Assembly: GCA_048594725.1 (NCBI GenBank)
Contig: JBMDXA010000018.1
Coordinates: 10,055 to 74,054, forward strand
From: Candidatus Kapaibacteriota bacterium
GTDB taxonomy: Bacteria > Bacteroidota > Ignavibacteria > OLB7
Length of the DNA: 64,000 nucleotides
Direction: 5' to 3'
Position numbers and translations under genes: made by a program. The notes under the pieces were generated by a model. That model did not search any database and was not told where the DNA came from. It was given only the letters and a program-made list of their open reading frames with translations. This document shows positions 2,654 to 46,430 of the stretch, piece by piece (within the stretch, counting starts at the first letter, position 1; each line of letters opens with the position of its first letter).

Positions 2654-2685
2654 CCCCCCAATCGAAAATCGAAAATCGAAAATCC
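2654..2685. repeat. Copy of dispersed C-run + (AATCGAAAATC / CGAAAAT heptamer) intergenic repeat
   Basis: ccccccAATCGAAAATCGAAAATCGAAAATcc, lying between the convergent ABC ATPase and MlaD genes. It directly abuts the MlaD stop codon (rc tca at 2687-2689). Confidence 0.6.
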
Positions 2686-3647: not shown

Positions 3648-3684
3648 GGGAATTTTCGATGTACGATTTCGGATGTTCTATTGG
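3648..3684. repeat. Degenerate copy of the CGAAAAT-heptamer repeat family (reverse orientation)
   Basis: gggAATTTTCGATgtaCGATTTCGGATgttctattgg, immediately upstream of the MlaD start codon (3640). Confidence 0.35.
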
Positions 3685-15474: not shown

Positions 15475-15505
15475 GGGAATTTTCGATTTTCGATTGACGA
15501 TTTCA
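15475..15505. repeat. Copy of the CGAAAAT-heptamer repeat family inside the efflux operon
   Basis: ggggAATTTTCGATTTTCGATTgaCGATTTC, in the 111-bp gap between the ATPase stop and the permease start. Confidence 0.5.
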
Positions 15506-15558
15506 GATCGGGCAGAAACATCCGTGATCCACGGACTACCGACAGCCGGCGAAGCCTG

Positions 15559-16320
<762 letters not shown>

Positions 16321-17826: not shown

Positions 17827-17959
17827 CCCCAATCGAAAATCTCTCCCCAATCGTCCCCCTCTTCCCAATCGAAAATCCAAAATCGAAAATCGAAAATTCC
17901 CCCTCTTCCAATCCTCCCTCTTCCCAATCGAAAATCCAAAATCGAAAATCGAAAATCCC
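17827..17959. repeat. Largest block of the CGAAAAT-heptamer repeat family (about 50-bp unit duplicated)
   Basis: ccccAATCGAAAATCtctccccaatcgtccccctcttcccAATCGAAAATCCAAAATCGAAAATCGAAAATtccccctcttccaatcctccctcttcccAATCGAAAATCCAAAATCGAAAATCGAAAATccc. It fills most of the tolC-macA intergenic region and abuts the tolC stop (rc tca at 17960-17962). Confidence 0.8.
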
Positions 17960-19312
17960 TCACTCTCCCACCTGGTAGCGGATCTCGAAGATCGCCATGC
18001 GGTAATTGAACACCGCGTTCACCTGGTTGATCTGGGCGGTAAGGTACTGGTTGTTTGCCAGAAGGTAATCCGAATAACTTCCCGCTCCCAGCCTGAAGCG
18101 CTCGTCGGAGGCGTAGCGGCTCTGGCGGGTGGCGGCCACCGCCTTCTCGGCCGCGCGCAACTGCCGCTCGGCCCCTTCCAGGCGTGCGATCGACTGCTGA
18201 AGCTGCGAGCGCGCATCAAGCTCCAATCGTCTCAACTCTATCTCCGCCGACTGGCGTTGCGCCTCGGCAAGCTCCACCTGTTCGCTGGTACGGAACCCGT
18301 CGAACGGGGTGAACTGGAAATTGAGACCGAACTGGGTGTTGGCGCTTCCATCGGTTGCACCGGCCTTCTGCCAGTACCAGCCGAGCGATGTGGAGATGGT
18401 GGGATAATACCCGGAGCGCGCCACGGTGACGGAGCTTTTGGCCGCCTCCACCCGCAGCCGCGCGGCCTGCAGATCGGCACGGGTACGCCGCTGCGATTCC
18501 AGCATCATCTCCAGCGTTCCGAACTGCCCCCTGGTACGGGTCATCTCGGCCGAATCGATGCTGTTGGCAAGCCCCTCGGAGGAGAGCTGCACCTGCGTAG
18601 CCGGATCATAATTCAACAGAAGCTGAAGGTTGTTGCGCGCTATCAGCGCATCGGTGCGGGACTGCTCCAGCGAAAGCTCCGCATTGGCGACCTCCGCCTC
18701 CTGCGAGTAGACCACGCCGATCTGCGCCGCCCCCGCATCGACCAGCGCGCGGTTCTGCGCAAGCCGCTCGCCGGCCAGCTCCAGATCGGCCTCCCGTATC
18801 TCGATAAGCTGCTCGGCGCGCAGCGCGTTCAGAAAGGCGCTCCGTGCCTGCCAGCTTACATCCTGGCGGGTGCGCGCAAGGCTCTGCAGCGAGGCATCGA
18901 ACGATGCACGGGCGTTGCTGTAGCTGGCGGTGCGATTGAACCCGTCGAAGAGCACCAGGCTGGCGCCGGCCGAAGCATCGTAGCTGTAATCGGGACGGCC
19001 GGTCTGAAGGGGGATTCCCTGCACGATCACCGTGGGATCATCGCTGAGCTGCTTGGCGTAACCGCTGTTGATGCTGATCTGCGGAAGGAACGCGCCGAAG
19101 GCACCGGTCACCCGCGCCGAGGAGGTCTCCACCTGCGACTGCGAGAGCGCAACCGAGAGATTCCGTTCCAGCGCAAGCTCCACGGCCTGATCGATCGTGA
19201 GGGTTCTGGGAGGCCCGCCACCCGGCACCTGCGAGAATGCCCCGGCGGAACCTGCTACTATACCTATCGCAAGAAGAAAAGCCTGTGCGGCTCGTGTTGG
19301 TCGGTCCATCAT
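17960..19312 (-). CDS. TolC-family outer membrane efflux protein
   Basis: Signal peptide MMDRPTRAAQAFLLAIGIVAGSAGAFSQ. ...LTIDQAVELALERNLSVALSQSQVE... and internally duplicated coiled-coil/beta-barrel repeats typical of TolC/OprM. Confidence 0.85.
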   Translation of the reverse strand: MMDRPTRAAQAFLLAIGIVAGSAGAFSQVPGGGPPRTLTIDQAVELALERNLSVALSQSQVETSSARVTGAFGAFLPQISINSGYAKQLSDDPTVIVQGIPLQTGRPDYSYDASAGASLVLFDGFNRTASYSNARASFDASLQSLARTRQDVSWQARSAFLNALRAEQLIEIREADLELAGERLAQNRALVDAGAAQIGVVYSQEAEVANAELSLEQSRTDALIARNNLQLLLNYDPATQVQLSSEGLANSIDSAEMTRTRGQFGTLEMMLESQRRTRADLQAARLRVEAAKSSVTVARSGYYPTISTSLGWYWQKAGATDGSANTQFGLNFQFTPFDGFRTSEQVELAEAQRQSAEIELRRLELDARSQLQQSIARLEGAERQLRAAEKAVAATRQSRYASDERFRLGAGSYSDYLLANNQYLTAQINQVNAVFNYRMAIFEIRYQVGE

Positions 19313-23164: not shown

Positions 23165-25288
23165 ATGAGGCATTTCAGACTACTGTGCTCCGCGCTCCTG
23201 ATTGCTCTGTGCTCCTCTCTGGCGCTGATGGCGCAGGATTCGCTCCGCTACTACCGCCTCTACCTGAAGGATAAAGGGACCCCTGAAAGAACTCTCTCCC
23301 CTGCCGATCCCTTCTACAAGCAGGCAACCGCCCATCTTACCGGCCGGGCCCTCGCCCGCCGCGCCAGGGTGCTGCCGGCCGGGAGCCTCGTCTCCACGAG
23401 CGATCTTCCCTTGTACCCCCCCTATCTAGAGGCCATCGCCGCGGCCGGAGCCGAGGTGCGGCAGACCTCCCGCTGGCTGAACACCGCCATGGTCCTGGCC
23501 GACTCGGCAACCTACGAGCGGCTCCGCTCCCTCCCCTTTCTCGATTCGGCGCGGATGATGAAGGCGCGCCGGCGCACTACCGATATCCCGTTCGGCAAGG
23601 GAAGCTCCCTCGTGCGGATACAGACTTCTCCCCCCCCTGCCGATCCCCGTTCCTTCTGCATCACCGATCACTACGGGCGCGCCGACTATCAGAACCGGAT
23701 GACCGGCATCGACAAGGGACATATGCTCGGTATCGCCGGCGAGGGGGTGCTGGTGGGAGTGCTGGACGCCGGGTTCGACTGGCGCGGGCATGCCGCGCTC
23801 CGGCATCTGAATGTGATCGCCGAACATGACTTCGTCTTCAACGACAGCAATGTGGCCGACGAGCCGGGGGAGTTCGGAGCCGAGTCGCACGGCACCACCG
23901 TGATGGGGATGATCGGGGGATATTACCAGAACGTTCTGATAGGAGGTGCCCCGCACGCCAGCTTCATCCTTGCCAAGACCGAGGATATCCGGAGCGAACG
24001 GCAGGTGGAGGAGGATAATTTCGTGGCCGGCCTGGAGTGGATAGAATCGATGGGGGCGGATGTGACCAACACCTCGCTCGGCTATACCACGTTCGATGCC
24101 CCGGAACGCTCCCACGACTATAGCGAACTGGACGGGCGCACCGCCCATGCCTCGCGCGGGCTGAACCACGCCGTATCGCTCGGGGTGGTCTGCGTGGTGG
24201 CCGCCGGCAACGAGGCCGGCAGATACAACTACGTCAGCGTCCCGGCCGAGGCCGATTCGGCGATCGCCGTGGCGGCGGTGGACTCCAGCGGCAGAGTGGC
24301 CTATTTCAGCAGCAGGGGATTCGGCGAGATGACCGTGCCGGGACGGGTCCGGCTGAAGCCGGATGTTGCCGCGTTCGGCGTGGGCAACTGGGGCGCCGAT
24401 CATAGCGATACCTTCAGAATCCTGACCGGCCAGGGAACATCCTATGCCTCGCCGATGGTGGCCGGGGCGGTGGCGATGATCCTTTCGGCACGGCCCGGAC
24501 TTACCCCCTACCAGGTGCGGGAACTTCTGTACAAGACCTCCAGCCGCGCCACCGATCCGGATACCGCCGTGGGACACGGGGTGGTGAATGTGGGAAGAGC
24601 CCTTCAGGAATTGAGCCGGAGCGCGCCGGTGGTGGGACTGCCGAAGGTGATGATGTTCGGCGATCATCTCTCCATCATCGCCGGAACCCTGTTCGAGGGG
24701 GGCATGCCGATGGGGCAGTTCCGGAACGATCTCCCCCTCTCCTCCTATCTGGCCTTGACGGTGGGGGTTCCCGGCGGGCCCGATACCACCATACTGCAAC
24801 CGCAGCCCCTGGCCGGGGTGGCACGATGGTACGTTCCGGCAACCGTGCGCGGAATCAGCCTTACCCCGGAAGACAGCGTGGACCTGATGATCCGCTATGC
24901 CTCCACCGGCGAGATCGTCCGGCAGGGACGCTTCGGCCTGGGAGCATCGCAGGGCACCTTCCAGGTGGCGCAGGGGGTTCCGGATCTGGTCACAAGCACG
25001 CTCTGCGAGATACCGGCCATGCCGGGCACATCGGTAGCGGTGGCGGTGCCGAACCCGTTCCGCCAGTTCACCATGATCGGCTTCGAGACCGGCGATAGAG
25101 CCACCGTCTCGCTGACGGTCTACAACGCGCTCGGCCAGGAGGTGGCCCGGCTTATCGACCAGCGGGAGATGGACCCCGGATTCCATACCAGCTACTTCCA
25201 GCCCGCCGGGCTGCCGGCCGGCTCCTACTACTACATGCTCCAGGTGGGAGAGGATGTGCGAAGCCAGCAGGTGATTTATACGAAGTAA
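23165..25288 (+). CDS. Subtilisin-like serine peptidase (S8) with Por/T9SS-type C-terminal domain
   Basis: Signal peptide MRHFRLLCSALLIALCSSLALMAQ. Catalytic-triad regions: VGVLDAGFD (Asp), ESHGTTVMGMIGG (His), GTSYASPMVAGAVAMI (Ser). C-terminal ...SYYYMLQVGEDVRSQQVIYTK. Confidence 0.85.
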   Translation: MRHFRLLCSALLIALCSSLALMAQDSLRYYRLYLKDKGTPERTLSPADPFYKQATAHLTGRALARRARVLPAGSLVSTSDLPLYPPYLEAIAAAGAEVRQTSRWLNTAMVLADSATYERLRSLPFLDSARMMKARRRTTDIPFGKGSSLVRIQTSPPPADPRSFCITDHYGRADYQNRMTGIDKGHMLGIAGEGVLVGVLDAGFDWRGHAALRHLNVIAEHDFVFNDSNVADEPGEFGAESHGTTVMGMIGGYYQNVLIGGAPHASFILAKTEDIRSERQVEEDNFVAGLEWIESMGADVTNTSLGYTTFDAPERSHDYSELDGRTAHASRGLNHAVSLGVVCVVAAGNEAGRYNYVSVPAEADSAIAVAAVDSSGRVAYFSSRGFGEMTVPGRVRLKPDVAAFGVGNWGADHSDTFRILTGQGTSYASPMVAGAVAMILSARPGLTPYQVRELLYKTSSRATDPDTAVGHGVVNVGRALQELSRSAPVVGLPKVMMFGDHLSIIAGTLFEGGMPMGQFRNDLPLSSYLALTVGVPGGPDTTILQPQPLAGVARWYVPATVRGISLTPEDSVDLMIRYASTGEIVRQGRFGLGASQGTFQVAQGVPDLVTSTLCEIPAMPGTSVAVAVPNPFRQFTMIGFETGDRATVSLTVYNALGQEVARLIDQREMDPGFHTSYFQPAGLPAGSYYYMLQVGEDVRSQQVIYTK

Positions 25289-25424
25289 AAGGGTCAGTGG
25301 TCAGTGCGCGGGCTGCGCCCGCTGTCCGTGGTCCGTGGCTGGTGGAGCAGGGGCTTGCGGCAACTGGGGAGAAGATCTTCTCTCCAACTCCGGACCCCGA
25401 ACTCGGGGGCTCCAGAACTATTCT

Positions 25425-25456
25425 CCCCGATCGAAAATCCAAAATCGAAAATCTCC
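25425..25456. repeat. Copy of the CGAAAAT-heptamer repeat family
   Basis: ccccgATCGAAAATCCAAAATCGAAAATctcc, between the S8 peptidase and the ABC exporter genes. Confidence 0.5.
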
Positions 25457-25672: not shown

Positions 25673-27517
25673 ATGTCCGATTCCTCAAAGACACCCGAGA
25701 CGGGGAGCGAAGAGAAAAAAGGGTTCGATTTCAAAAAACTGAAAATCACCCGGGGCTCCATCGATGGCGCCCGGTTCCTGTTCCGCTACCTTCGCCCCTA
25801 CCGCTGGAAGTTCATTCTCGCCCTGGTCGCGCTTCTGTTCTCGTCGCTCGCCGGACTTGTCTTTCCGGGTCTCACCGGAAGGCTCGTGGATGCTACCACC
25901 GGGAGCGATCCGGACCGCCTTTCGCTGAACCAGATCACCCTCATCCTGATAGCGGCGCTCTTTGCGCAGTCGGCATTCAGCTACATCCGGAGCTACTTCA
26001 TCACCGAGGTGGCCGAGCGTACCCTCTCGGATCTCCGCCACGATCTGTACGGCCGCATCCTCCGCCTTCCGATGGAGTTCTTCCACAAGAACAGGGTCGG
26101 GGAGCTTACCAGCCGCATCACCACTGATGTGGGGCAGATCCAGTACACCATCACCACCGCCCTGTCGGAGCTGATCCGCCAGGTGGTGATCCTGATAGGC
26201 GGCATCGCGCTGGTGGCCTATACATCGCCGCAGCTGACGCTGGTGATGCTGGTGGCAGTGCCGCTGCTGGTGCTGATGGCACTGGTCTTCGGACGGCTGA
26301 TCCGCAAGGCGAGCAAGCAGCTGCACGATCTCCACGCAAAGCTGAACACCGTGGCGGAGGAGACCTTCCAGGGGATCAGCGCGGTAAAGGCGTTTACCGC
26401 GGAGAGCCGGGAAACCGCCCGCTACAGCCGGACGCTCGGGGAGCTTGTGGGCGTTGCGCTCCGGGTGGGACGCGCACGCGGTGCGTTTATCGCGCTCATC
26501 ATCTTCATCCTGTTCGGCGGCATCGTCGGGGTGATCTGGTACGGCGGCCATATGGTGATGGATGGAACGCTGACGATAGGCTCGCTTACCTCGTTCGTCC
26601 TGTACGCCCTGTTCGTGGGAGGGGCGATGGGGAGCTTCGCCGATCTGTACGGATCGGTGCAGAGCGCCATGGGCGCCAGCGAGCGGGTGCGGGATCTGCT
26701 CCAGAGTTCCGCCGAGGATATCGACCGCTCGCTGGGTGCGATCCCGGCGCGCGGGCATATCCAGTTCCGCGATATCTCCTTTGCCTACCCCTCCCGCCCC
26801 GATCTTCCGGTGCTTCAGGGGATCACGCTCGATGTCCCGGCCGGAACCAGCCTGGCGCTGGTGGGCCCCTCGGGAGCGGGCAAGTCCACCGTGGCCGGCA
26901 TCCTGATGCGGTTCTACGAGCCCACCTCCGGCGAGCTGGTGGTGGACGGCCGCGCGGCCGTGGATTATACGCTGCTGGACTTCCGCTCATCGGTGGCGAT
27001 CGTGCCGCAGGATGTGATACTCTTCGGCGGCACCATCGCCGAGAACATCGCCTACGGCAACCCCGATGTGGGAGAGGAACGGATCAGAGAGGCCGCCCGC
27101 CTGGCGAACGCCGCCGATTTCATCGAGTCGTTCCCGGAGGGATACCAGACGGTGGTGGGTGAACGGGGAGTGCAGCTTTCCGGCGGCCAGCGCCAGCGCA
27201 TAGCCATAGCCAGGGCGATCGTGAAAGACCCCGCGATCCTGATCCTGGACGAGGCCACCAGTTCGCTCGACTCGGAATCCGAGCGCCTGGTGCAGGATGC
27301 GCTGGACAAGGTGATGAAGAACCGCACCACGCTGGTGATAGCCCACCGCCTCAGCACCATCCGCAATGCCGACCGCGTGGCGGTGCTGCGCCAGGGAACC
27401 ATCATCGAGAACGGCAGCTACGATGAGCTGATCGCCGCCGGAGGAGTATTCGCCCGCCTGGTGTCATTGCAGAGCCGGGGCGAGATCGACGACTTCCGGC
27501 TGACCATCGACGAGTGA
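25673..27517 (+). CDS. ABC exporter, fused permease/ATP-binding protein (MsbA-like)
   Basis: Six-TM domain, then NBD with Walker [26 protein letters not shown], Walker B ILILDEATSSLD and H-loop LVIAHRLSTI. Confidence 0.9.
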   Translation: MSDSSKTPETGSEEKKGFDFKKLKITRGSIDGARFLFRYLRPYRWKFILALVALLFSSLAGLVFPGLTGRLVDATTGSDPDRLSLNQITLILIAALFAQSAFSYIRSYFITEVAERTLSDLRHDLYGRILRLPMEFFHKNRVGELTSRITTDVGQIQYTITTALSELIRQVVILIGGIALVAYTSPQLTLVMLVAVPLLVLMALVFGRLIRKASKQLHDLHAKLNTVAEETFQGISAVKAFTAESRETARYSRTLGELVGVALRVGRARGAFIALIIFILFGGIVGVIWYGGHMVMDGTLTIGSLTSFVLYALFVGGAMGSFADLYGSVQSAMGASERVRDLLQSSAEDIDRSLGAIPARGHIQFRDISFAYPSRPDLPVLQGITLDVPAGTSLALVGPSGAGKSTVAGILMRFYEPTSGELVVDGRAAVDYTLLDFRSSVAIVPQDVILFGGTIAENIAYGNPDVGEERIREAARLANAADFIESFPEGYQTVVGERGVQLSGGQRQRIAIARAIVKDPAILILDEATSSLDSESERLVQDALDKVMKNRTTLVIAHRLSTIRNADRVAVLRQGTIIENGSYDELIAAGGVFARLVSLQSRGEIDDFRLTIDE

Positions 27518-27520
27518 GGC

Positions 27521-27559
27521 GATTTACGATTTCGGATTTTCGATTGGCGATTTTCGATT
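27521..27559. repeat. Copy of the CGAAAAT-heptamer repeat family abutting the ABC exporter stop
   Basis: GATTTaCGATTTCGGATTTTCGATTggCGATTTTCGATT begins 4 nt after the TGA at 27515-27517. Confidence 0.5.
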
Positions 27560-30469: not shown

Positions 30470-30665
30470 ATTGTAGAACGTAGTTCGTAGTCTGCCGCCT
30501 GCGGCGGCTGTAGATAGTAGTCTGCAGGGAGAAGGTCCGTGCTCGGTAGTCCGCCGTCGGCCGGACGGCACTGCACACCATACTGGTAGATTCAGGAATA
30601 ACGGCGACGGACTACTGATAGCGTACCGACAGCGGGCGAAGCCCGCGAACGGACTACGCACATCT
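30470..30665. repeat. Cluster of GTAGTC / ACGGACTAC REP-like motifs upstream of recQ
   Basis: gtagtctgccgcctgcggcggc...gtagtctgcag...ggtagtccgccgtcggccggacgg...acggactactgatagcgtaccgacaGCGGGCgaaGCCCGCgaACGGACTACgcac. Multiple copies of GTAGTC and its complement, including a hairpin+ACGGACTAC unit that recurs elsewhere in the window. Confidence 0.5.
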
Positions 30666-30872
30666 CTGCCAGTCGTCAATCGAAAATCTTCAAGGCCGGC
30701 CAAAATCGTCATTCCCGCCGAATAGGGAAAATGTTCGTAGCATTGCCGGACGTTCCAGATGTGTTATCTTTGGGCATTCCCAAACGGCCGGGCGCTGCTG
30801 CATCATGGCGACACGATAGAGAGTTTCGGAACGTCGGTACAAGGCAGCGCTCAGCAGTCGCACGGTATATCC

Positions 30873-30954
30873 GGAGGGCTCGCATAATGGTATTGCAGCG
30901 GTCTTGAAAACCGCCGGGCGCAAGCCTGTGGGGGTTCGAGTCCCTCGCCCTCCG
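30873..30954 (+). tRNA. tRNA-Ser (anticodon UGA)
   Basis: Acceptor stem GGAGGGC/GCCCTCC (7 bp perfect). D-arm GCA-TAATGGTAT-TGC. Anticodon arm GCGGT-CTTGAAA-ACCGC, so U33 and anticodon TGA. Long variable arm with GGGC-GCAA-GCCT. T-arm GGGGG-TTCGAGT-CCCTC. Discriminator G. CCA not encoded. Confidence 0.8.
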
Positions 30955-32583: not shown

Positions 32584-33306
32584 GTGGAAGAAGTACTTCG
32601 AGCACTCTACAGACTACAACAGATCGATCTGGAGCTCGATGAGCTGAATGACGGAGGGGGCGATCTGCCGGCCGAGGTCGATCAGCTTCAGAAGAAAATC
32701 GATGAGCTCTCGGCCGCCATGGCGGTTGAAGAGGGGAAGCTCCGCGATCTCCGTGAGTCGCGCACCGGCGCCAACAACGCCATCAACGATATGCGCGAGC
32801 GGGTGAAGATGCTGAACGAACGGCTTCGTACGGTGCGCAACAACAAGGAATACGAGGCCACCACCGCCGATATCGCTTCGGCCGAGGAGGAGCTTCTTGC
32901 CATGGAACGCTCCACCACCACGGTCAATACCCAGGAGGCGATGCTGATCCGCGATATCGAAACGATCAACCGGCAGCGCGAGGAACTGGTCAAGGAGATG
33001 GACGAGAAGAACGATACTCTCACCACCATCCGCGATACGCACGCCGATGAGATCAACTCTCTTCGCACCGCCCGCGAGGAAGTGGCATCCCAGATCAGCC
33101 CCGATCTGCTGAAGCGCTACCGCCATATCCGCACCGCTCACGACGACGCAGTGGTGAAGGTGCGCAAGGGAGCCTGCAACGGCTGCTACCGCGCCATCCC
33201 CCCGCAGACGCTCGTGGAGATGCGCCGCTCCGAACAGCTCTTCAGCTGCGAACACTGCGGCCGTATCATCGTCGATGAGGAAATCGCCGCATCGGTGACG
33301 GTGTAG
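32584..33306 (+). CDS. C4-type zinc-ribbon domain protein (COG1579/DUF164-like), coiled-coil
   Basis: Long coiled-coil (ALYRLQQIDLELDELN...), then C-terminal CNGCYRAIPPQTLVEMRRSEQLFSCEHCGRIIV. This is the classic genomic partner of Nif3. Confidence 0.8.
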   Translation: MEEVLRALYRLQQIDLELDELNDGGGDLPAEVDQLQKKIDELSAAMAVEEGKLRDLRESRTGANNAINDMRERVKMLNERLRTVRNNKEYEATTADIASAEEELLAMERSTTTVNTQEAMLIRDIETINRQREELVKEMDEKNDTLTTIRDTHADEINSLRTAREEVASQISPDLLKRYRHIRTAHDDAVVKVRKGACNGCYRAIPPQTLVEMRRSEQLFSCEHCGRIIVDEEIAASVTV

Positions 33307-33365
33307 TCAGTAGTCAGTAGTCAGTAGTCAGTAGTCAGTAGTCAGTAGTCAGTAGTCAGTAGTCA
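33303..33365. repeat. Heptanucleotide microsatellite (GTAGTCA)x9
   Basis: Nine perfect tandem copies starting inside the TAG stop codon of the zinc-ribbon gene (stop 33304-33306). The complement GACTACT is the core of the ACGGACTAC(T) REP-like motif. Confidence 0.9.
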
Positions 33366-33549
33366 AAATGGCGAAGCTGCTAGCCATGTCAATGCTAATC
33401 AATCACGCTTCGCCGGCTCTACTCCGGATGCCGGGGTTTCAGCCACGAACGACGGACTACTGACGACGGACCAATACCTGATAACCAGAGAAATGCCTCA
33501 GCCAGCCGTATAGCGTTGGCGGCGCTATCTGAATCCCGATCTTTGACAT

Positions 33550-33998
33550 CTCCGGAGTGTGTCGGGCAGTCGCTCGCCGATCATTCGGCGGGAGGAACGT
33601 CCGAACTCCATAGGGCAACGTGCCAGCTAACGGCTGGGCGCCCAATCCCGCGCCGGAAACGGCCGGGAGAGGCGACGGAAAGTGCAACAGAAAGGATACC
33701 GCCCCGTTCCGGCCCGCAGCTGCAATACCAGATGCGGGCCGGGACGGGGTAAGGGTGAAATGGCGAGGTAAGAGCTCACCGCATCCCGGGCAACCGGGAT
33801 GGCAGTGCAAACCCCACGTGGAGCAAGGCCAAATAGGGTGTCGTCATGGAGCTGCCCGCTCCCGATCCTCCCCTCGCGGGAAAAGATCACGGCACCGGGT
33901 AGGCTGCTAGAGGGCGCGGGCGACCGCGCTCCCAGAGAAATGACTGCCTCCACCACCAGGTGTAGACAGAATTCGGCGTACAGACACGCTTCGGAGTA
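33550..33998 (+). ncRNA. rnpB: RNase P RNA, bacterial type A
   Basis: Conserved blocks: GGAGGAACGTCCGAACTCCATAGGGCAA (P4 5' strand), GTGCAACAGAAAGGATACCGCC, GGGGTAAGGGTGAAATGGCGAGGTAAGAGCTCACC, GGAGCAAGGCCAAATAGGG, ACAGAATTCGGCGTACAG (P4 3' strand). P1 pairing CCGGAGTGTGTC (33552-33563) with GACACGCTTCGG (33983-33994). Ends are approximate to within about 10 nt. Confidence 0.85.
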
Positions 33999-34227
33999 TG
34001 TTGTTTTCAGGATTGCGGATGGCGATTGCAGAAGCGATCCGTAACGGCCATGGAAGATCGGACCGATCGATCGTACCGATCTCCCCCCCGTTCGTCGCAG
34101 CGGAAACTTCCGGCCGGTTCCGGTATGATTCATCGATGGGGACCCCGAGGGTCCCTTTTCCTTTTCCCCTTCATTCCTCCTCCCCACGCCCCGGCGCGGG
34201 ACCACGTTCATCAACTTGCACCCGTAG

Positions 34228-43770: not shown

Positions 43771-43810
43771 TCCCCAATCGAAAATCGAAAATCGCCAATC
43801 GAAAATCCCC
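43771..43810. repeat. Copy of the CGAAAAT-heptamer repeat family abutting the ppk stop
   Basis: ccccAATCGAAAATCGAAAATCGccAATCGAAAATccccc, immediately followed by the ppk stop codon (rc cta at 43811-43813). Confidence 0.6.
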
Positions 43811-45982
<2,172 letters not shown>

Positions 45983-46430
45983 AATGCTTGCATACCCGTG
46001 AAGGGGCACAGTTCCGGGGGATGACCCGCTGCGGCATCCGCTCGGGCCCTTCCTGTAGCGTACAGGGGGAGCCGGAGGGCGCCGGCATCGATGCGATGGG
46101 CCCGCCGGGAGGGGGCCATCTGCGGGACCGGGTTTGAAGCGACCGGCCGATGACGCTGACACCGAACCGCCGGGAGCGATGCGAGGTTCCCGGCGGGCGC
46201 GACACGGCCCCATCGCACCGCAGGATATACGGCGGTAACGATGGCGCTTTTAAAGTAGTGTTTCACCGCACCGCTGGCAAGTAATGTTATGGCTATCGGC
46301 CCCCTCCCCTGCAAGGAAGTATTACACGCCGGCTCATCGCTTTAACGTCACCATCGTTGGCCGTAAGTTTACCCGAAACATCGTACCGAACGGAAGTTCA
46401 TAACAACGTACTATAACTGGAGAATCTTCC

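What the first reader, a model, noticed from the sequence alone, without database searches (positions are those of the whole stretch)
17827..17959. Dispersed intergenic repeat family built from CGAAAAT heptamers framed by C-runs (8 loci in 64 kb)
Seen directly: copies at 2654-2685, 3648-3684 (degenerate), 15475-15505, 17827-17959 (about 50-bp unit duplicated, six or more heptamers), 25425-25456, 27521-27559, 30677-30688 (single unit) and 43771-43810. The core is ccccAATCGAAAATC(GAAAATC)n ccc, in both orientations. All copies are intergenic and none contains a hairpin. I do not recognise this as a described REP/BIME/MITE family; that rests on my recall only. The unit has no terminal inverted repeats, so it is not a MITE. 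A heptamer tandem of this kind could be a protein-binding array (nucleoid or terminator-associated factor), an RNA 3'-end element, or a hotspot for slipped-strand variation.
Basis: seen in the sequence. Interest (0 to 1): 0.6.

Follow-up and report, generated by a model that had tools for sequence, protein, structure and literature searches.

The report
Heptamer repeat arrays marking gene ends
The window really does contain a dispersed family of short arrays of a 7-base unit (AATCGAA), which belongs to an already described but functionally unexplained class of bacterial heptamer repeats that sit, in a fixed orientation, right against the starts and ends of genes.

Summary
Observation confirmed. 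CGAAAATCGAAAAT (up to 2 mismatches) occurs 21 times against 0.26 expected, at 8-9 loci, all intergenic.

The source is an uncultured Kapabacteria-like (Bacteroidota group) genome that shows no Shine-Dalgarno signal.

The kind is not new. It matches the heptameric simple-sequence-repeat class described for GGGAATC in Xanthomonas and GGGGAYT in Nostoc (Rehm 2015), TAACTGA (MacGregor 2015) and cyanobacterial STRRs. The shared features:
- heterogeneous units around a conserved core (here AATC);
- arrays of 4-5 units;
- polarity relative to genes;
- fast turnover between relatives;
- no known function.

Polarity in the window: all four arrays whose GAUUUUC strand is sense start 0-3 nt after a stop codon, and two AAUCGAA-sense arrays end 7 and 27 nt before a start codon. 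In 240 loci from other organisms:
- 36% of GAUU-sense arrays abut a stop codon against 3% of AAUC-sense arrays (p = 1e-6);
- inverted pairs are ordered GAUU arm first 73:3;
- genes tend to be bracketed by an AAUC array at the 5' end and a GAUU array at the 3' end.

A 97%-identical strain keeps arrays at the same sites, with every GATT core intact while about half the variable positions differ. Relatives at 76-87% identity have none.

Best reading: slippage-born arrays, transcribed within UTRs, with a selected single-strand core motif. Function remains unproven.

The parts
2654..2685 (+). Array CCCCCC-(AATCGAA)3-AATCC. On the minus (mlaD) strand it reads TGA-T-GGATTTTCGATTTTCGATTTTCGATTGGGGGG, a GAUU-type trailer starting 1 nt after the mlaD stop codon (2687-2689).
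   Evidence: mlaD identity from Pfam MlaD. The same sequence is in the independent contig L505, which breaks inside the array.
3648..3684 (-). Degenerate array. On the minus strand it reads CCAATAGAACATCCGAAATCGTACATCGAAAATTCCC and ends 7 nt before the mlaD ATG (3640), so it is an AAUC-type leader. Together with 2654-2685 it brackets mlaD.
   Evidence: Duplex with 2654-2685: -21.7 kcal/mol against -15.5 +/- 6.2 for controls.
15475..15505 (-). Array. On the minus strand it reads TGAAATCGTCAATCGAAAATCGAAAATTCCCC, an AAUC-type leader 27 nt before the ATG (15447) of a MacB/FtsX-type permease and 53 nt after the stop of the ABC ATPase gene.
17827..17959 (+). Main composite locus: short AATC-plus-C/T-rich pieces, then two 59-bp modules (17857-17900 and 17916-17959, 98% identical), each carrying a 5-unit array. 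On the minus strand it starts directly after the TGA (17960-17962) of the TolC-like gene and lies 124 nt before the HlyD-like gene ATG (17702).
   Evidence: Structure-poor on both strands. The 97% strain has an array at the same junction (L506). The 76-80% relatives have none.
25425..25456 (+). Array CCCCGATCGAAAATCCAAAATCGAAAATCTCC, AAUC-sense, 136 nt after the subtilase stop and 216 nt before the ATG of the 614-aa ABC exporter. It is the only copy that abuts neither codon. Together with 27521-27559 it brackets the ABC gene.
   Evidence: Duplex -32.5 against -16.3 +/- 6.3 kcal/mol.
27521..27559 (-). Six-unit array. On the plus (gene) strand it reads TGA-GGC-GATTTACGATTTCGGATTTTCGATTGGCGATTTTCGATT, a GAUU-type trailer starting 3 nt after the ABC exporter stop (27515-27517).
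30677..30688 (+). Single AATCGAAAATC unit (weak second unit CCAAAATCGTC at 30700-30710), about 185 nt upstream of a tRNA gene (30873-30954, plus strand). Doubtful member.
34004..34033 (-). Degenerate GATT-type tract (GGATTGCGGATGGCGATTGCAG on the plus strand), 7 nt after the 3' end of the RNase P RNA gene (33554-33996, plus strand).
   Evidence: (family D2, 63% identity).
43771..43810 (+). Five-unit array TCCCC-AATCGAAAATCGAAAATCGCCAATCGAAAATC-CCC. On the minus strand it starts directly after the TAG (43811-43813) of polyphosphate kinase.
   Evidence: Orthologous junctions in the 97%, 87% and 80% relatives.

Best explanation
The copies are arrays of a heptameric simple-sequence repeat, normally 4-5 units of (AATC + 3 variable bases). 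They belong to the known class of bacterial intergenic heptamer repeats.

Shown:
- They are strictly intergenic.
- The AATC/GATT core is conserved while the other three positions drift.
- Arrays stop at about five units. The main locus grew by duplicating a whole 59-bp module, not by lengthening an array.
- They are polar with respect to neighbouring genes. The GAUUUUC strand is the sense strand when the array starts within a few nt after a stop codon, or after the 3' end of a tRNA or RNase P gene. The AAUCGAA strand is the sense strand when the array ends just before a start codon.
- Close inverted pairs are almost always ordered GAUU arm first and fill the spacer from stop to start.
- They are gained and lost quickly between relatives.

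Inferred:
- The arrays arise and turn over by replication slippage and module duplication.
- They are transcribed as the first nucleotides of 3' UTRs and the last nucleotides of 5' UTRs.
- They are kept in this polarity because they act on RNA. The A/C-rich, G-poor AAUC array is a structure-free single-stranded leader, suited to start-codon selection in a genome that lacks Shine-Dalgarno sequences, and probably a multi-site landing pad for a single-strand RNA-binding factor such as ribosomal protein S1.
- The complementary GAUU array is tolerated, or used, immediately after the stop codon. There it can pair with an AAUC leader nearby (as a hairpin) or at the other end of the gene, so that a terminating ribosome would open the pairing.

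In this window the arrays are single and unstructured, so the leader/trailer role is the one that applies, not the hairpin role. The function itself is not demonstrated.
For: Reality and location.

Grammar:
- Units flanking the search seed carry 0.3-0.65 bits at the AATC positions and about 0.07-0.1 bits at the G and first A positions; the A adjoining the next core also carries 0.37-0.43 bits.
- Between the window and a strain with 97% protein identity, 0 of 36 core positions differ against 13 of 26 variable positions (Fisher 1.3e-6).

Size:
- Exact-core runs number 84/85/67/12/4 for 3/4/5/6/7 units among seeded arrays, and 34/51/32/2 for 3/4/5/6 units among arrays without the seed.
- The peak is at 5 units when degenerate end units are allowed, 144 of 254.

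Polarity:
- Window: 4 of 4 GAUU-sense arrays start 0-3 nt after a stop; 2 of 3 AAUC-sense arrays end 7 and 27 nt before an ATG.
- 240 loci from other organisms, window excluded: stop-abutting 20/56 GAUU-sense against 2/72 AAUC-sense (p = 1.3e-6). Start-abutting 19/67 AAUC-sense against 4/51 GAUU-sense (p = 0.005).
- The stop rule replicates in the metagenome set alone, 8/23 against 0/29 (p = 6.5e-4).
- Inverted pairs are GAUU-first 73:3.
- In 38 such pairs between co-directional genes, the GAUU arm starts within 11 nt of the stop in 30, and the AAUC arm ends within 29 nt of the start in 28.
- At gene-length distances the order reverses, AU 17 to UA 5.
- Three of three arrays within 24 nt downstream of a tRNA are GAUU-sense.

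Other support:
- No Shine-Dalgarno enrichment in the window, 6/39 against 5/39 in a control window.
- The arrays are unstructured.
- They occur before ribosomal-protein and translation genes: L27, S19 and L18 above Pfam's cut-off, with weaker RRF and MetAP matches on 45-aa fragments.
- Class precedent: PMC4692102, PMC4679880.
Against: - No expression data, so transcription of the arrays is assumed.
- In inverted pairs the sense and antisense folds are equally stable (20 against 19). There is therefore no G-U signature of selection on one RNA strand.
- 'AAUC array right before start' is significant only in the genome set and not in the metagenome set alone (4/26 against 2/20).
- In-window duplex energies between the bracketing arrays are only 1-2.6 sd better than random intergenic pairs.
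- One window copy (25425) abuts neither codon.
- The arrays are absent from all five orthologous sites in the 76-87% relatives, and from 91 kb of their DNA. Whatever they do is therefore dispensable and gene-unspecific.
- In the viral collection, tandems of this heptamer are no more frequent than same-composition controls.
- My gene calls in foreign loci come from a rough home-made caller.
- The tRNA sample is tiny.
Confidence: 0.4

Rival explanations
1. Functionless slippage product. The arrays are selfish or neutral heptamer microsatellites. The 7-nt unit is favoured by polymerase slippage, as Mrazek proposed (cited in PMC4679880 and PMC4692102). The polarity is only a filter: insertions survive where they do not harm start-codon access or other signals.
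For: - Rapid gain and loss: none in 91 kb of the 76-87% relatives against 10 expected.
- Different heptamers occupy the same junctions in relatives: ACTGAC-type in L504 and TTCAACA in L508.
- Heptamer tandems of many sequences are about equally common.
- Flanking genes belong to many functional classes, as also reported in PMC4692102.
Against: - Pure slippage plus uniform mutation does not explain 0/36 core changes against 13/26 variable changes in a strain pair.
- It does not explain the cliff in array length after five units.
- It does not explain the 73:3 arm order.
- Arrays start 0-3 nt after stop codons far more often in one orientation, although both orientations lack stop and start codons in every frame.
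Confidence: 0.3
2. DNA-level operator arrays. A small DNA-binding protein binds one heptad per dimer and coats 4-5 contiguous heptads cooperatively, as the ribbon-helix-helix omega/ParB protein of pSM19035 does on WATCACW heptads. The arrays would then be nucleoid-organising or regulatory sites.
For: - A conserved 4-bp core at a 7-bp period, with a typical array of 4-5 units.
- The omega system needs at least 4 contiguous heptads, and its heptad AATCACA shares the AATC core (PMC9499535).
- No strand asymmetry in hairpin stability.
Against: - The polarity follows the transcription direction of the neighbouring gene, including tRNA and RNase P genes. That is unusual for a duplex-binding factor.
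- Arrays abut stop codons, not promoters.
- No RHH or ParB-like gene among the 20 window proteins scanned.
- No candidate protein is known across the many phyla that carry such arrays.
Confidence: 0.12
3. Rho entry sites. The A/C-rich, G-poor strand, with a UC dinucleotide every 7 nt and C-run frames, is a rut-like sequence. Because that strand is always read by polymerases moving towards the gene, the arrays would stop untranslated antisense or read-through transcription entering genes.
For: - The A/C-rich strand is G-poor and unstructured.
- The polarity is symmetric: the A/C-rich strand points into the gene at both ends.
- No intrinsic terminators were found next to the arrays.
Against: - The same class and polarity occur in cyanobacteria (many Microcoleus loci; Nostoc in PMC4692102), which to my knowledge lack Rho.
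- A rut site in a sense 5' leader would be counter-productive.
- Nothing here tests termination.
Confidence: 0.08
4. G-quadruplex elements. This is the explanation favoured for the GGGAATC and GGGGAYT members of the class.
For: - The window arrays are framed by G-runs on the GAUU strand (GGGG...GATTGGGG). The main locus has many GGG/GGGGG runs on that strand.
- Rehm et al. showed G4 formation in vitro for their repeats.
Against: - The repeating unit has a single G and cannot supply four G-tracts.
- Most arrays in other organisms have no G-run frame, yet they show the same size mode and polarity.
- This argues that G4 formation is not what the class has in common.
Confidence: 0.04

Closest known systems
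Heptameric G-rich SSRs GGGAATC (Xanthomonas) and GGGGA(C/T)T (Nostoc PCC 7120), Rehm et al. 2015, PMC4692102
   Same: - A 7-nt unit with heterogeneous units around conserved positions.
- 89-93% intergenic.
- A mode of four units.
- One strand lies within 0-50 bp of, or overlapping, the stop codon when on the coding strand, and close to the start when on the non-coding strand.
- Many inverted pairs of fixed relative orientation.
- Under-represented between divergent genes.
- Extensive length and sequence variation between close species.
- Gene functions unrelated; function unknown.
- The Nostoc unit GGGGATT is GATTGGG in another phase. That is the terminal unit of the window arrays, in the same orientation after stops.
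   Different: - The unit here is AT-rich (GATTTTC / AATCGAA), with one G, so it has no G-quadruplex potential in the repeat itself.
- The host is a Bacteroidota-group organism without Shine-Dalgarno usage.
- In Xanthomonas the AATC core points the other way relative to genes, so polarity follows G/T-richness and not the AATC tetramer.
TAACTGA direct repeats of marine Beggiatoaceae, some Cyanobacteria and Bacteroidetes, MacGregor 2015, PMC4679880
   Same: - Heptamer direct repeats of 2-6 copies per set.
- Mostly intergenic, in 'forward' orientation within a few nt upstream of start codons, replacing a ribosome-binding site.
- Found before ribosomal-protein genes among others.
- Patchy distribution across phyla.
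- Proposed binding by S1, Csp or CsrA-type proteins.
   Different: - A different unit.
- That paper reports only one indirect (inverted) repeat set, against 169 direct sets.
- Its emphasis is on repeats just upstream of start codons. I did not read its full results for any stop-codon association.
Cyanobacterial STRR sequences (short tandemly repeated repetitive heptamers; three tandemly repetitive heptanucleotides were reported for Calothrix PCC 7601, cited in PMC4692102; the unit sequences CCCCAGT, TTGGTCA, CAACAGT are from my memory)
   Same: Dispersed tandem heptamers in intergenic DNA with no assigned function. The window also contains (GTAGTCA)9 and GGTCAGT tracts that resemble the STRR units.
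   Different: STRRs are defined in heterocystous cyanobacteria with other unit sequences. Membership is by lineage and sequence, and neither applies here.
REP/BIME elements of enterobacteria and pseudomonads
   Same: Dispersed, intergenic, often just downstream of stop codons or between genes of an operon. From memory, REPs within about 15 nt of a stop codon have been reported to affect translation (Liang, Rudd, Deutscher 2015). The inverted-pair form of the heptamer arrays in other organisms has the same placement.
   Different: REPs are imperfect palindromes of about 35-40 bp without internal 7-nt periodicity, and they are linked to RAYT transposases. The window copies are not palindromic, and no RAYT was seen among the window genes scanned.
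Omega (ParB) heptad arrays of plasmid pSM19035, PMC9499535
   Same: 7-bp non-palindromic heptads (WATCACW, e.g. AATCACA) sharing the AATC core. Arrays of contiguous heptads in direct and inverted arrangements. At least 4 contiguous heptads are needed for full activity. One protein dimer binds per heptad, with cooperative binding.
   Different: These are plasmid promoter/centromere sites of 7-10 heptads with a cognate RHH protein encoded next to them. The arrays here are chromosomal, dispersed, polar with respect to transcripts, and have no cognate protein identified.

Membership tests
Intergenic heptameric SSR arrays (class of Rehm 2015 / Mrazek 2007) | Tandem unit of 7 nt, with heterogeneous units around conserved positions | tested here: met
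   TRF period 7 at seven loci. Conserved AATC core with three variable positions.
Intergenic heptameric SSR arrays (class of Rehm 2015 / Mrazek 2007) | Strong bias to non-coding DNA (about 90%) | tested here: met
   Window 9 of 9 loci intergenic. 84% of 169 clusters in genome loci (window included) lie outside ORFs.
Intergenic heptameric SSR arrays (class of Rehm 2015 / Mrazek 2007) | Preferred array size of about four units | tested here: met
   Exact-core runs peak at 4 with a cliff after 5. The peak is at 5 when degenerate end units are allowed. Window arrays have 3-6 units.
Intergenic heptameric SSR arrays (class of Rehm 2015 / Mrazek 2007) | Orientation-dependent closeness to the stop codon (one strand) and the start codon (the other strand) | tested here: met
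   Window 4 of 4 and 2 of 3. Other organisms p = 1.3e-6 and p = 0.005.
Intergenic heptameric SSR arrays (class of Rehm 2015 / Mrazek 2007) | Frequent inverted pairs of one fixed relative orientation | tested here: met
   73:3 across three collections. No close inverted pair in the window itself, only gene-bracketing pairs at 1 and 2 kb.
Intergenic heptameric SSR arrays (class of Rehm 2015 / Mrazek 2007) | Extensive variation between closely related genomes | tested here: met
   The 97% strain has the same sites with different variable bases. The 76-87% relatives have no arrays at five orthologous sites.
G-quadruplex-forming subclass (GGGNATC) | A G-tract of at least 3 in every unit, so that four units can form a G4 | tested here: not met
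   The unit GATTTTC has a single G. Only the frames carry G-runs.
Cyanobacterial STRR | Unit sequence CCCCAGT, TTGGTCA or CAACAGT in a heterocystous cyanobacterium | tested here: not met
   The unit is AATCGAA. The host is Kapabacteria-like by the PPK and TolC homologue names. Only 5 HIP1 sites in 64 kb.
TAACTGA repeats (MacGregor 2015) | Unit TAACTGA in forward orientation directly upstream of start codons | tested here: not met
   The unit differs. The placement before starts is shared by the AAUC-sense copies.
REP/BIME | Imperfect palindrome of about 35-40 bp able to form a stem-loop | tested here: not met
   Window copies are direct arrays. Both strands fold worse than shuffles.
REP/BIME | Associated RAYT (IS200/IS605-like) transposase in the genome | not testable with these tools
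   Only 64 kb of the genome is available. No such domain among the 20 window proteins scanned.
MITE | Terminal inverted repeats and target-site duplication | tested here: not met
   The copies have no terminal inverted repeats. Their flanks share only C/T-rich frames of variable sequence.
RHH (omega-type) heptad operator | At least 4 contiguous 7-bp heptads with a conserved core | tested here: met
   Compare PMC9499535.
RHH (omega-type) heptad operator | A cognate heptad-binding protein, with the arrays placed in its own or its target promoters | not testable with these tools
   No binding data. No RHH protein among the window proteins scanned. The arrays abut stop and start codons instead.
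Rfam RNA families | Match to a curated covariance model | tested here: not met
   At gathering score only RNase P and a tRNA are found in the window. At E <= 1, hairpin-type loci give only spurious miRNA-precursor hits.

The most novel reading that the evidence does not exclude
Period-7 arrays with a 4-nt core (AAUC before a gene, its complement GAUU after a gene) are a selected 'transcript-boundary' signal. An as yet unidentified single-strand nucleic-acid-binding factor, or the 30S subunit with protein S1, reads 4-5 heptads at a time. The same reading frame of 7 and the same array size apply to all members of the heptamer-repeat class (GGGAATC, GGGGAYT, TAACTGA, AATCGAA) across many phyla. 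If so, the G-quadruplex explanation of the class is wrong, and a general mechanism linking stop codons, intercistronic spacers and start codons remains to be discovered.
Probability: 0.2. Interest if true: 0.8.

Novelty: new member of a known kind. Interest (0 to 1): 0.45.

Why it matters
Dispersed heptamer repeats have been known in cyanobacteria for decades (cited in PMC4692102; Mazel 1990 from memory) and in Xanthomonas since the 2007 survey, without any assigned function. The most detailed study tied them to G-quadruplexes.

This AT-rich member cannot form quadruplexes in its repeat. It still shows the same array size, the same polarity at stop and start codons, and a core kept intact while neighbouring bases drift. 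That points away from G4 structure and towards a sequence-specific reader of single-stranded nucleic acid. If confirmed, it would give a concrete probe, (GAUUUUC)5 and (GAAAAUC)5, for finding the factor.

There is also a practical point. These arrays break short-read assemblies of this lineage: four independent contigs end inside them.

Tried and rejected
- **Cyanobacterial origin / HIP1.** Only 5 GCGATCGC sites in 64 kb. Rejected.
- **Insertion sequence with the inverted copies around mlaD as terminal repeats.** The enclosed gene is an ordinary MlaD protein and the neighbours are housekeeping genes. Rejected.
- **Known RNA family.** Rfam at gathering score finds nothing on the arrays. At a permissive threshold it gives only miRNA-hairpin noise.
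- **Literature search by sequence string.** No relevant hit for the 12-14-mers or the heptamer words.
- **Cross-phylum count as evidence that this heptamer is special.** More than 120 genome stretches and more than 120 metagenome stretches carry it. However, five same-composition heptamer tandems give 18-85 stretches against 44 in the viral collection. Withdrawn.
- **Intrinsic terminators or sigma-70 promoters next to the arrays.** None found. Bacteroidota-type promoters are not covered by that scan.
- **RNA-strand-specific selection in inverted pairs (G-U against C-A test).** No asymmetry, 20 against 19.
- **Strain-level copy-number variation from other assemblies.** The contigs found are 100% identical to the window and simply break in the arrays.
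- **Source assembly.** The look-up of the 100% PPK protein P0001 returned nothing, so the source assembly could not be named.
- **5'-3' pairing as a strong signal.** Duplex energies are only modestly better than controls.
- **Masking artefact.** My first count of 'abutting' arrays was contaminated by artificial ORF ends created by masking. It was redone with true codon boundaries only.
Full report
**1. The observation**

The sequence at 17827-17959 and the seven other listed loci are as described.
- CGAAAATCGAAAAT with up to two mismatches occurs 21 times against 0.26 expected.
- Tandem Repeats Finder reports period 7 at seven loci.
- Runs of at least three AATC cores at period 7 occur seven times against 0.02 in shuffles.
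- The family is the largest direct-repeat family in the window.
- The main locus holds two 59-bp modules that are 98% identical, each with a five-unit array, preceded by shorter AATC-plus-C/T-rich pieces.
- A further degenerate copy lies at 34004-34033.
- 30677-30688 is a single unit and is doubtful.

**2. Gene context in the window**

GC3 and a coding-score gene caller give a clear map. Every copy is intergenic (P of about 8e-7). The neighbours are ordinary genes: MlaD, SSB, a TolC/HlyD/ABC/FtsX efflux operon, a subtilase, an ABC exporter, polyphosphate kinase, RecQ and others. The 20 window proteins scanned include no transposase.

Read relative to the neighbouring gene, the copies fall into two classes.
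- **GATTTTC-sense.** When GATTTTC is the sense strand, the array starts 0-3 nt after the stop codon. This holds for mlaD at 2685/2687, the TolC-like gene at 17959/17960, the ABC exporter at 27517/27521 and ppk at 43810/43811.
- **AATCGAA-sense.** When AATCGAA is the sense strand, the array lies upstream of a start codon: 7 nt for mlaD, 27 nt for the FtsX permease and 216 nt for the ABC exporter.

Two genes (mlaD and the ABC exporter) carry an AAUC array at the 5' side and a GAUU array at the 3' side. The degenerate GATT tract at 34004 follows the RNase P RNA gene by 7 nt. No copy forms a hairpin: both strands of the main locus fold less stably than shuffles. No sigma-70 promoter or intrinsic terminator pattern is adjacent.

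**3. The organism**

The exact proteins are found otherwise only on short Logan contigs from SRR32316208. These contigs are 100% identical to the window and end inside arrays. The nearest named homologues of PPK and TolC are Candidatus Kapaibacterium / Kapabacteria, Ignavibacteriae, Chlorobi and Bacteroidota MAGs. A weak CHU_C type IX secretion match on the subtilase (below Pfam's cut-off) points the same way. The window has no Shine-Dalgarno enrichment upstream of starts (6/39 against 5/39). Its leaders are A/T-rich and G-poor, and the regions after stops are G-rich.

**4. Elsewhere**

The hits span Bacteroidota, Acidobacteriota, Planctomycetota, Verrucomicrobiota, Cyanobacteria (many Microcoleus), Chloroflexota, Nitrospirota and others. 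It also hits more than 120 metagenome stretches and 44 viral-collection stretches.

That count is not in itself special. The five other heptamers with the same composition and the same A4 run give 53, 85, 18, 37 and 21 stretches in the viral collection. Heptamer tandems are a common class, as Mrazek 2007 reported (cited in PMC4679880).

What the hits do show is a grammar.
- Units are AATC plus three variable bases.
- In an ascertainment-free profile of the units flanking the seed, the AATC positions carry 0.3-0.65 bits and the G and first A positions about 0.07-0.1 bits. The signal fades after one or two units.
- Array length is peaked. Seeded arrays have 84/85/67/12/4 cases with 3/4/5/6/7 exact cores. 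Non-seeded arrays have 34/51/32/2 with 3/4/5/6. The peak is at five units (144 of 254) when degenerate end units are allowed.
- The window's main locus grew by duplicating a module, not by lengthening an array. A Microcoleus locus (L069) does the same with modules of about 45 bp.

**5. Polarity in other organisms**

I used a rough gene caller validated on the window, counted only true codon boundaries (-3 to +12 nt), and excluded the window.
- GAUU-sense arrays abut a stop codon in 20 of 56 cases against 2 of 72 for AAUC-sense arrays (p = 1.3e-6).
- AAUC-sense arrays abut a start codon in 19 of 67 cases against 4 of 51 for GAUU-sense arrays (p = 0.005).
- The stop rule replicates in the metagenome set alone (8/23 against 0/29, p = 6.5e-4). 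The start rule does not (4/26 against 2/20).
- Neither orientation contains stop or start codons in any frame, so the comparison is fair.

Arrays within 120 nt of each other in opposite orientation are ordered GAUU arm first in 38:3, 29:0 and 6:0 cases in the three collections (pooled 73:3, p of about 2e-18). This order satisfies 'GAUU after stop, AAUC before start' for any arrangement of the flanking genes.
- For 38 such pairs between co-directional genes, the GAUU arm starts within 11 nt of the stop in 30 (seven overlap the TGA), and the AAUC arm ends within 29 nt of the start in 28. The pair therefore fills the intercistronic spacer.
- At distances of 301-3000 nt the order reverses (AU 17 to UA 5, p = 0.017). 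Genes tend to be bracketed as in the window.
- Genes directly after AAUC arms are housekeeping genes. They include L27, S19, L18 and AlaRS above Pfam's cut-off, weaker RRF and MetAP matches on the 45-aa fragments, and L2, L3 and L4 by their N-termini (my own recognition).
- Three of three single arrays within 24 nt downstream of tRNA genes are GAUU-sense. One GAUU/AAUC pair sits between two tRNA genes. The polarity therefore seems to follow transcript ends and not only ORFs, but the sample is small.
- In the pairs, sense and antisense folds are equally stable (20 against 19). There is no G-U evidence for selection on one RNA strand.

**6. Evolution at orthologous sites**

PPK and TolC homologues gave syntenic loci from a 97% strain (L502, L506), from 87%/80% relatives (L500/L501/L507 from GCA_964455525.1, and L503), and from 80% and 76% relatives (L504, L508).
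- **97% strain.** It has arrays exactly at the two junctions that can be seen. After ppk it reads TAG|GACGATTTCCGATTTTGGATTGACGATTTTCGATTGGG, against TAG|GGGGATTTTCGATTGGCGATTTTCGATTTTCGATTGGGG in the window. After the TolC gene it reads TGA|GGGGATTGACGATTGTCGATTTACGATTGA..., where the contig ends. All 36 comparable core positions are identical, while 13 of 26 variable positions differ (Fisher 1.3e-6).
- **76-87% relatives.** They have no AATC array at any of the five orthologous sites, nor anywhere in 91 kb (10 expected at the window's density, P = 5e-5).
- **Other heptamers at the same junctions.** Some relatives carry other heptamers in the same places. L504 has a 354-nt spacer after ppk built of GTCAGT/ACTGAC-type arrays as inverted pairs, G/T-rich arm first. 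L508 has (TTCAACA)2-3 directly after the ABC ATPase stop.

So the junctions are hot for heptamer arrays, the arrays are young and dispensable, and yet the core appears constrained while an array exists.

**7. Comparison with what is known**

- **Rehm et al. 2015 (PMC4692102).** For GGGAATC in Xanthomonas and GGGGA(C/T)T in Nostoc they describe heterogeneous units with conserved positions, 2-26 units with a clear mode at four, 89-93% intergenic location, and a mean of 28 nt to the 5' neighbouring ORF against 160 nt to the downstream one. The G-rich strand lies within 50 bp of, or overlapping, the stop codon when on the coding strand, and within 50 bp upstream of an ORF when on the non-coding strand. 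They also report 70-75 inverted pairs of one relative orientation, under-representation between divergent genes, strong variation between Xcc and Xac, transcription of most repeats, and no function found. They favoured G-quadruplexes because four units supply four G-tracts.
- **MacGregor 2015 (PMC4679880).** TAACTGA repeats lie directly upstream of start codons in Beggiatoaceae, Cyanobacteria and Bacteroidetes, with S1, Csp and CsrA suggested as binders.

The window family meets every defining feature of this class that I could test, except G-richness (see the membership table). It is therefore a new member (new unit, new lineage) of a known, unexplained kind. The Nostoc unit GGGGATT is GATTGGG in another phase, which is the unit that closes the window arrays, in the same orientation after stops.

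As a mechanistic precedent for reading heptads, the omega/ParB protein of pSM19035 binds WATCACW heptads one dimer per heptad and needs at least four contiguous heptads (PMC9499535). This is a resemblance, not membership.

**8. Interpretation**

The classification is secure, at about 0.9. For mechanism I favour, at about 0.3-0.4, a transcript-level role.
- The AAUC array would be a structure-free, G-poor leader for start-codon selection in a genome without Shine-Dalgarno sequences, and a multi-site platform for a single-strand binder.
- The GAUU array would be its complement, placed immediately after the stop. There it can pair with a leader, and a terminating ribosome would open that pairing.

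The polarity, the codon abutment, the arm order, the bracketing, the tRNA cases, the core conservation and the size limit all fit this. The lack of G-U asymmetry, the modest duplex energies, the dispensability in relatives and the absence of any expression data count against it.

The main rival, at about 0.3, is a functionless slippage product whose orientation is merely filtered by selection. It does not explain the core conservation or the five-unit ceiling. DNA-level operator arrays, Rho entry sites and G-quadruplexes are less likely, for the reasons given under each rival.

One point goes beyond the published work. An AT-rich member that cannot form quadruplexes in its repeat shows the same array size and polarity. 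This weakens the G-quadruplex explanation for the class as a whole.

**9. Limits**

- Gene calls in foreign loci are from a simple home-made caller.
- Loci from related genomes (several Microcoleus) are not independent.
- The viral controls mix phage, giant-virus and probably host DNA.
- Only 64 kb of the source genome was available.
- The strain comparison rests on two junctions.
- Nothing here measures RNA or protein binding.

Noticed in passing
window 33303-33365 (and 33445-33470): A perfect (GTAGTCA)9 tandem whose first unit contains the TAG stop of gene 32584-33306. About 80 nt further on lies a short complementary tract, CGACGGA CTACTGA CGACGGA, again with the G/T-rich arm 5'. Both lie upstream of the RNase P RNA gene (33554-33996). 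The unit resembles the cyanobacterial STRR and TAACTGA-type heptamers.
   Followed up: partly
window 15531-15559, 30607-30646, 25292-25338 (minus strand): A second small dispersed intergenic element: a GC hairpin GCGGGC-GAA-GCCCGC within CCGACAGCSGGCGAAGCCYGC (3 matches against 0 expected), flanked by ACGGACTACYGA-type heptamers (21 matches with up to 2 mismatches against 6.3 expected). Two copies lie next to AATC arrays.
   Followed up: partly
window 25289-25340: Directly after the subtilase stop (TAA at 25286-25288) come GGTCAGT x2 and GTCCGTG x2 around the GC hairpin. The 97% strain (L506) has TAGT-type heptamers at the same junction instead.
   Followed up: partly
whole window: GATC occurs 581 times against 227 expected from base composition (2.6-fold). 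TCGA is 1.55-fold enriched and CTAG is almost absent (16 against 227). This may reflect a Dam-like methylation or mismatch-repair system.
   Followed up: no
whole window (39 gene starts): No Shine-Dalgarno enrichment upstream of start codons (6/39 against 5/39 in a control window). Leaders are A/T-rich and G-poor at -24 to -13, and the first 60 nt after stop codons are G-rich (31-36% G).
   Followed up: partly
L001, L505, L506, L502 (Logan short-read contigs): Four independent short-read contigs of this species or its 97% strain end inside, or up to about 50 nt beyond, an AATC array. The arrays fragment short-read assemblies of this lineage.
   Followed up: yes
L504 12164-12517: In an 80% relative the ppk-to-VTT-gene spacer is 354 nt. 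It is built almost entirely of GTCAGT/ACTGAC-type heptamer arrays arranged as repeated inverted pairs.
   Followed up: partly
Viral-contig loci L339-L423 (e.g. L367, L405): The control heptamer AACTGAA (one base from MacGregor's TAACTGA) is the commonest of the six tested (85 stretches). It occurs 5-6 times on single viral contigs and shows the same polarity: 40/102 A-sense arrays abut a start against 0/36, and 13/24 U-sense arrays abut a stop.
   Followed up: partly
window 43811-46213: The longest ppk ORF is 800 aa, but the database protein with 100% identity and all homologues are about 723 aa. The true start is probably an internal ATG about 77 codons downstream.
   Followed up: no
window 30873-30954 and 33554-33996: A tRNA gene and a bacterial class A RNase P RNA gene (278.8 bits) lie in the window. 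Both have heptamer tracts in their flanks.
   Followed up: partly
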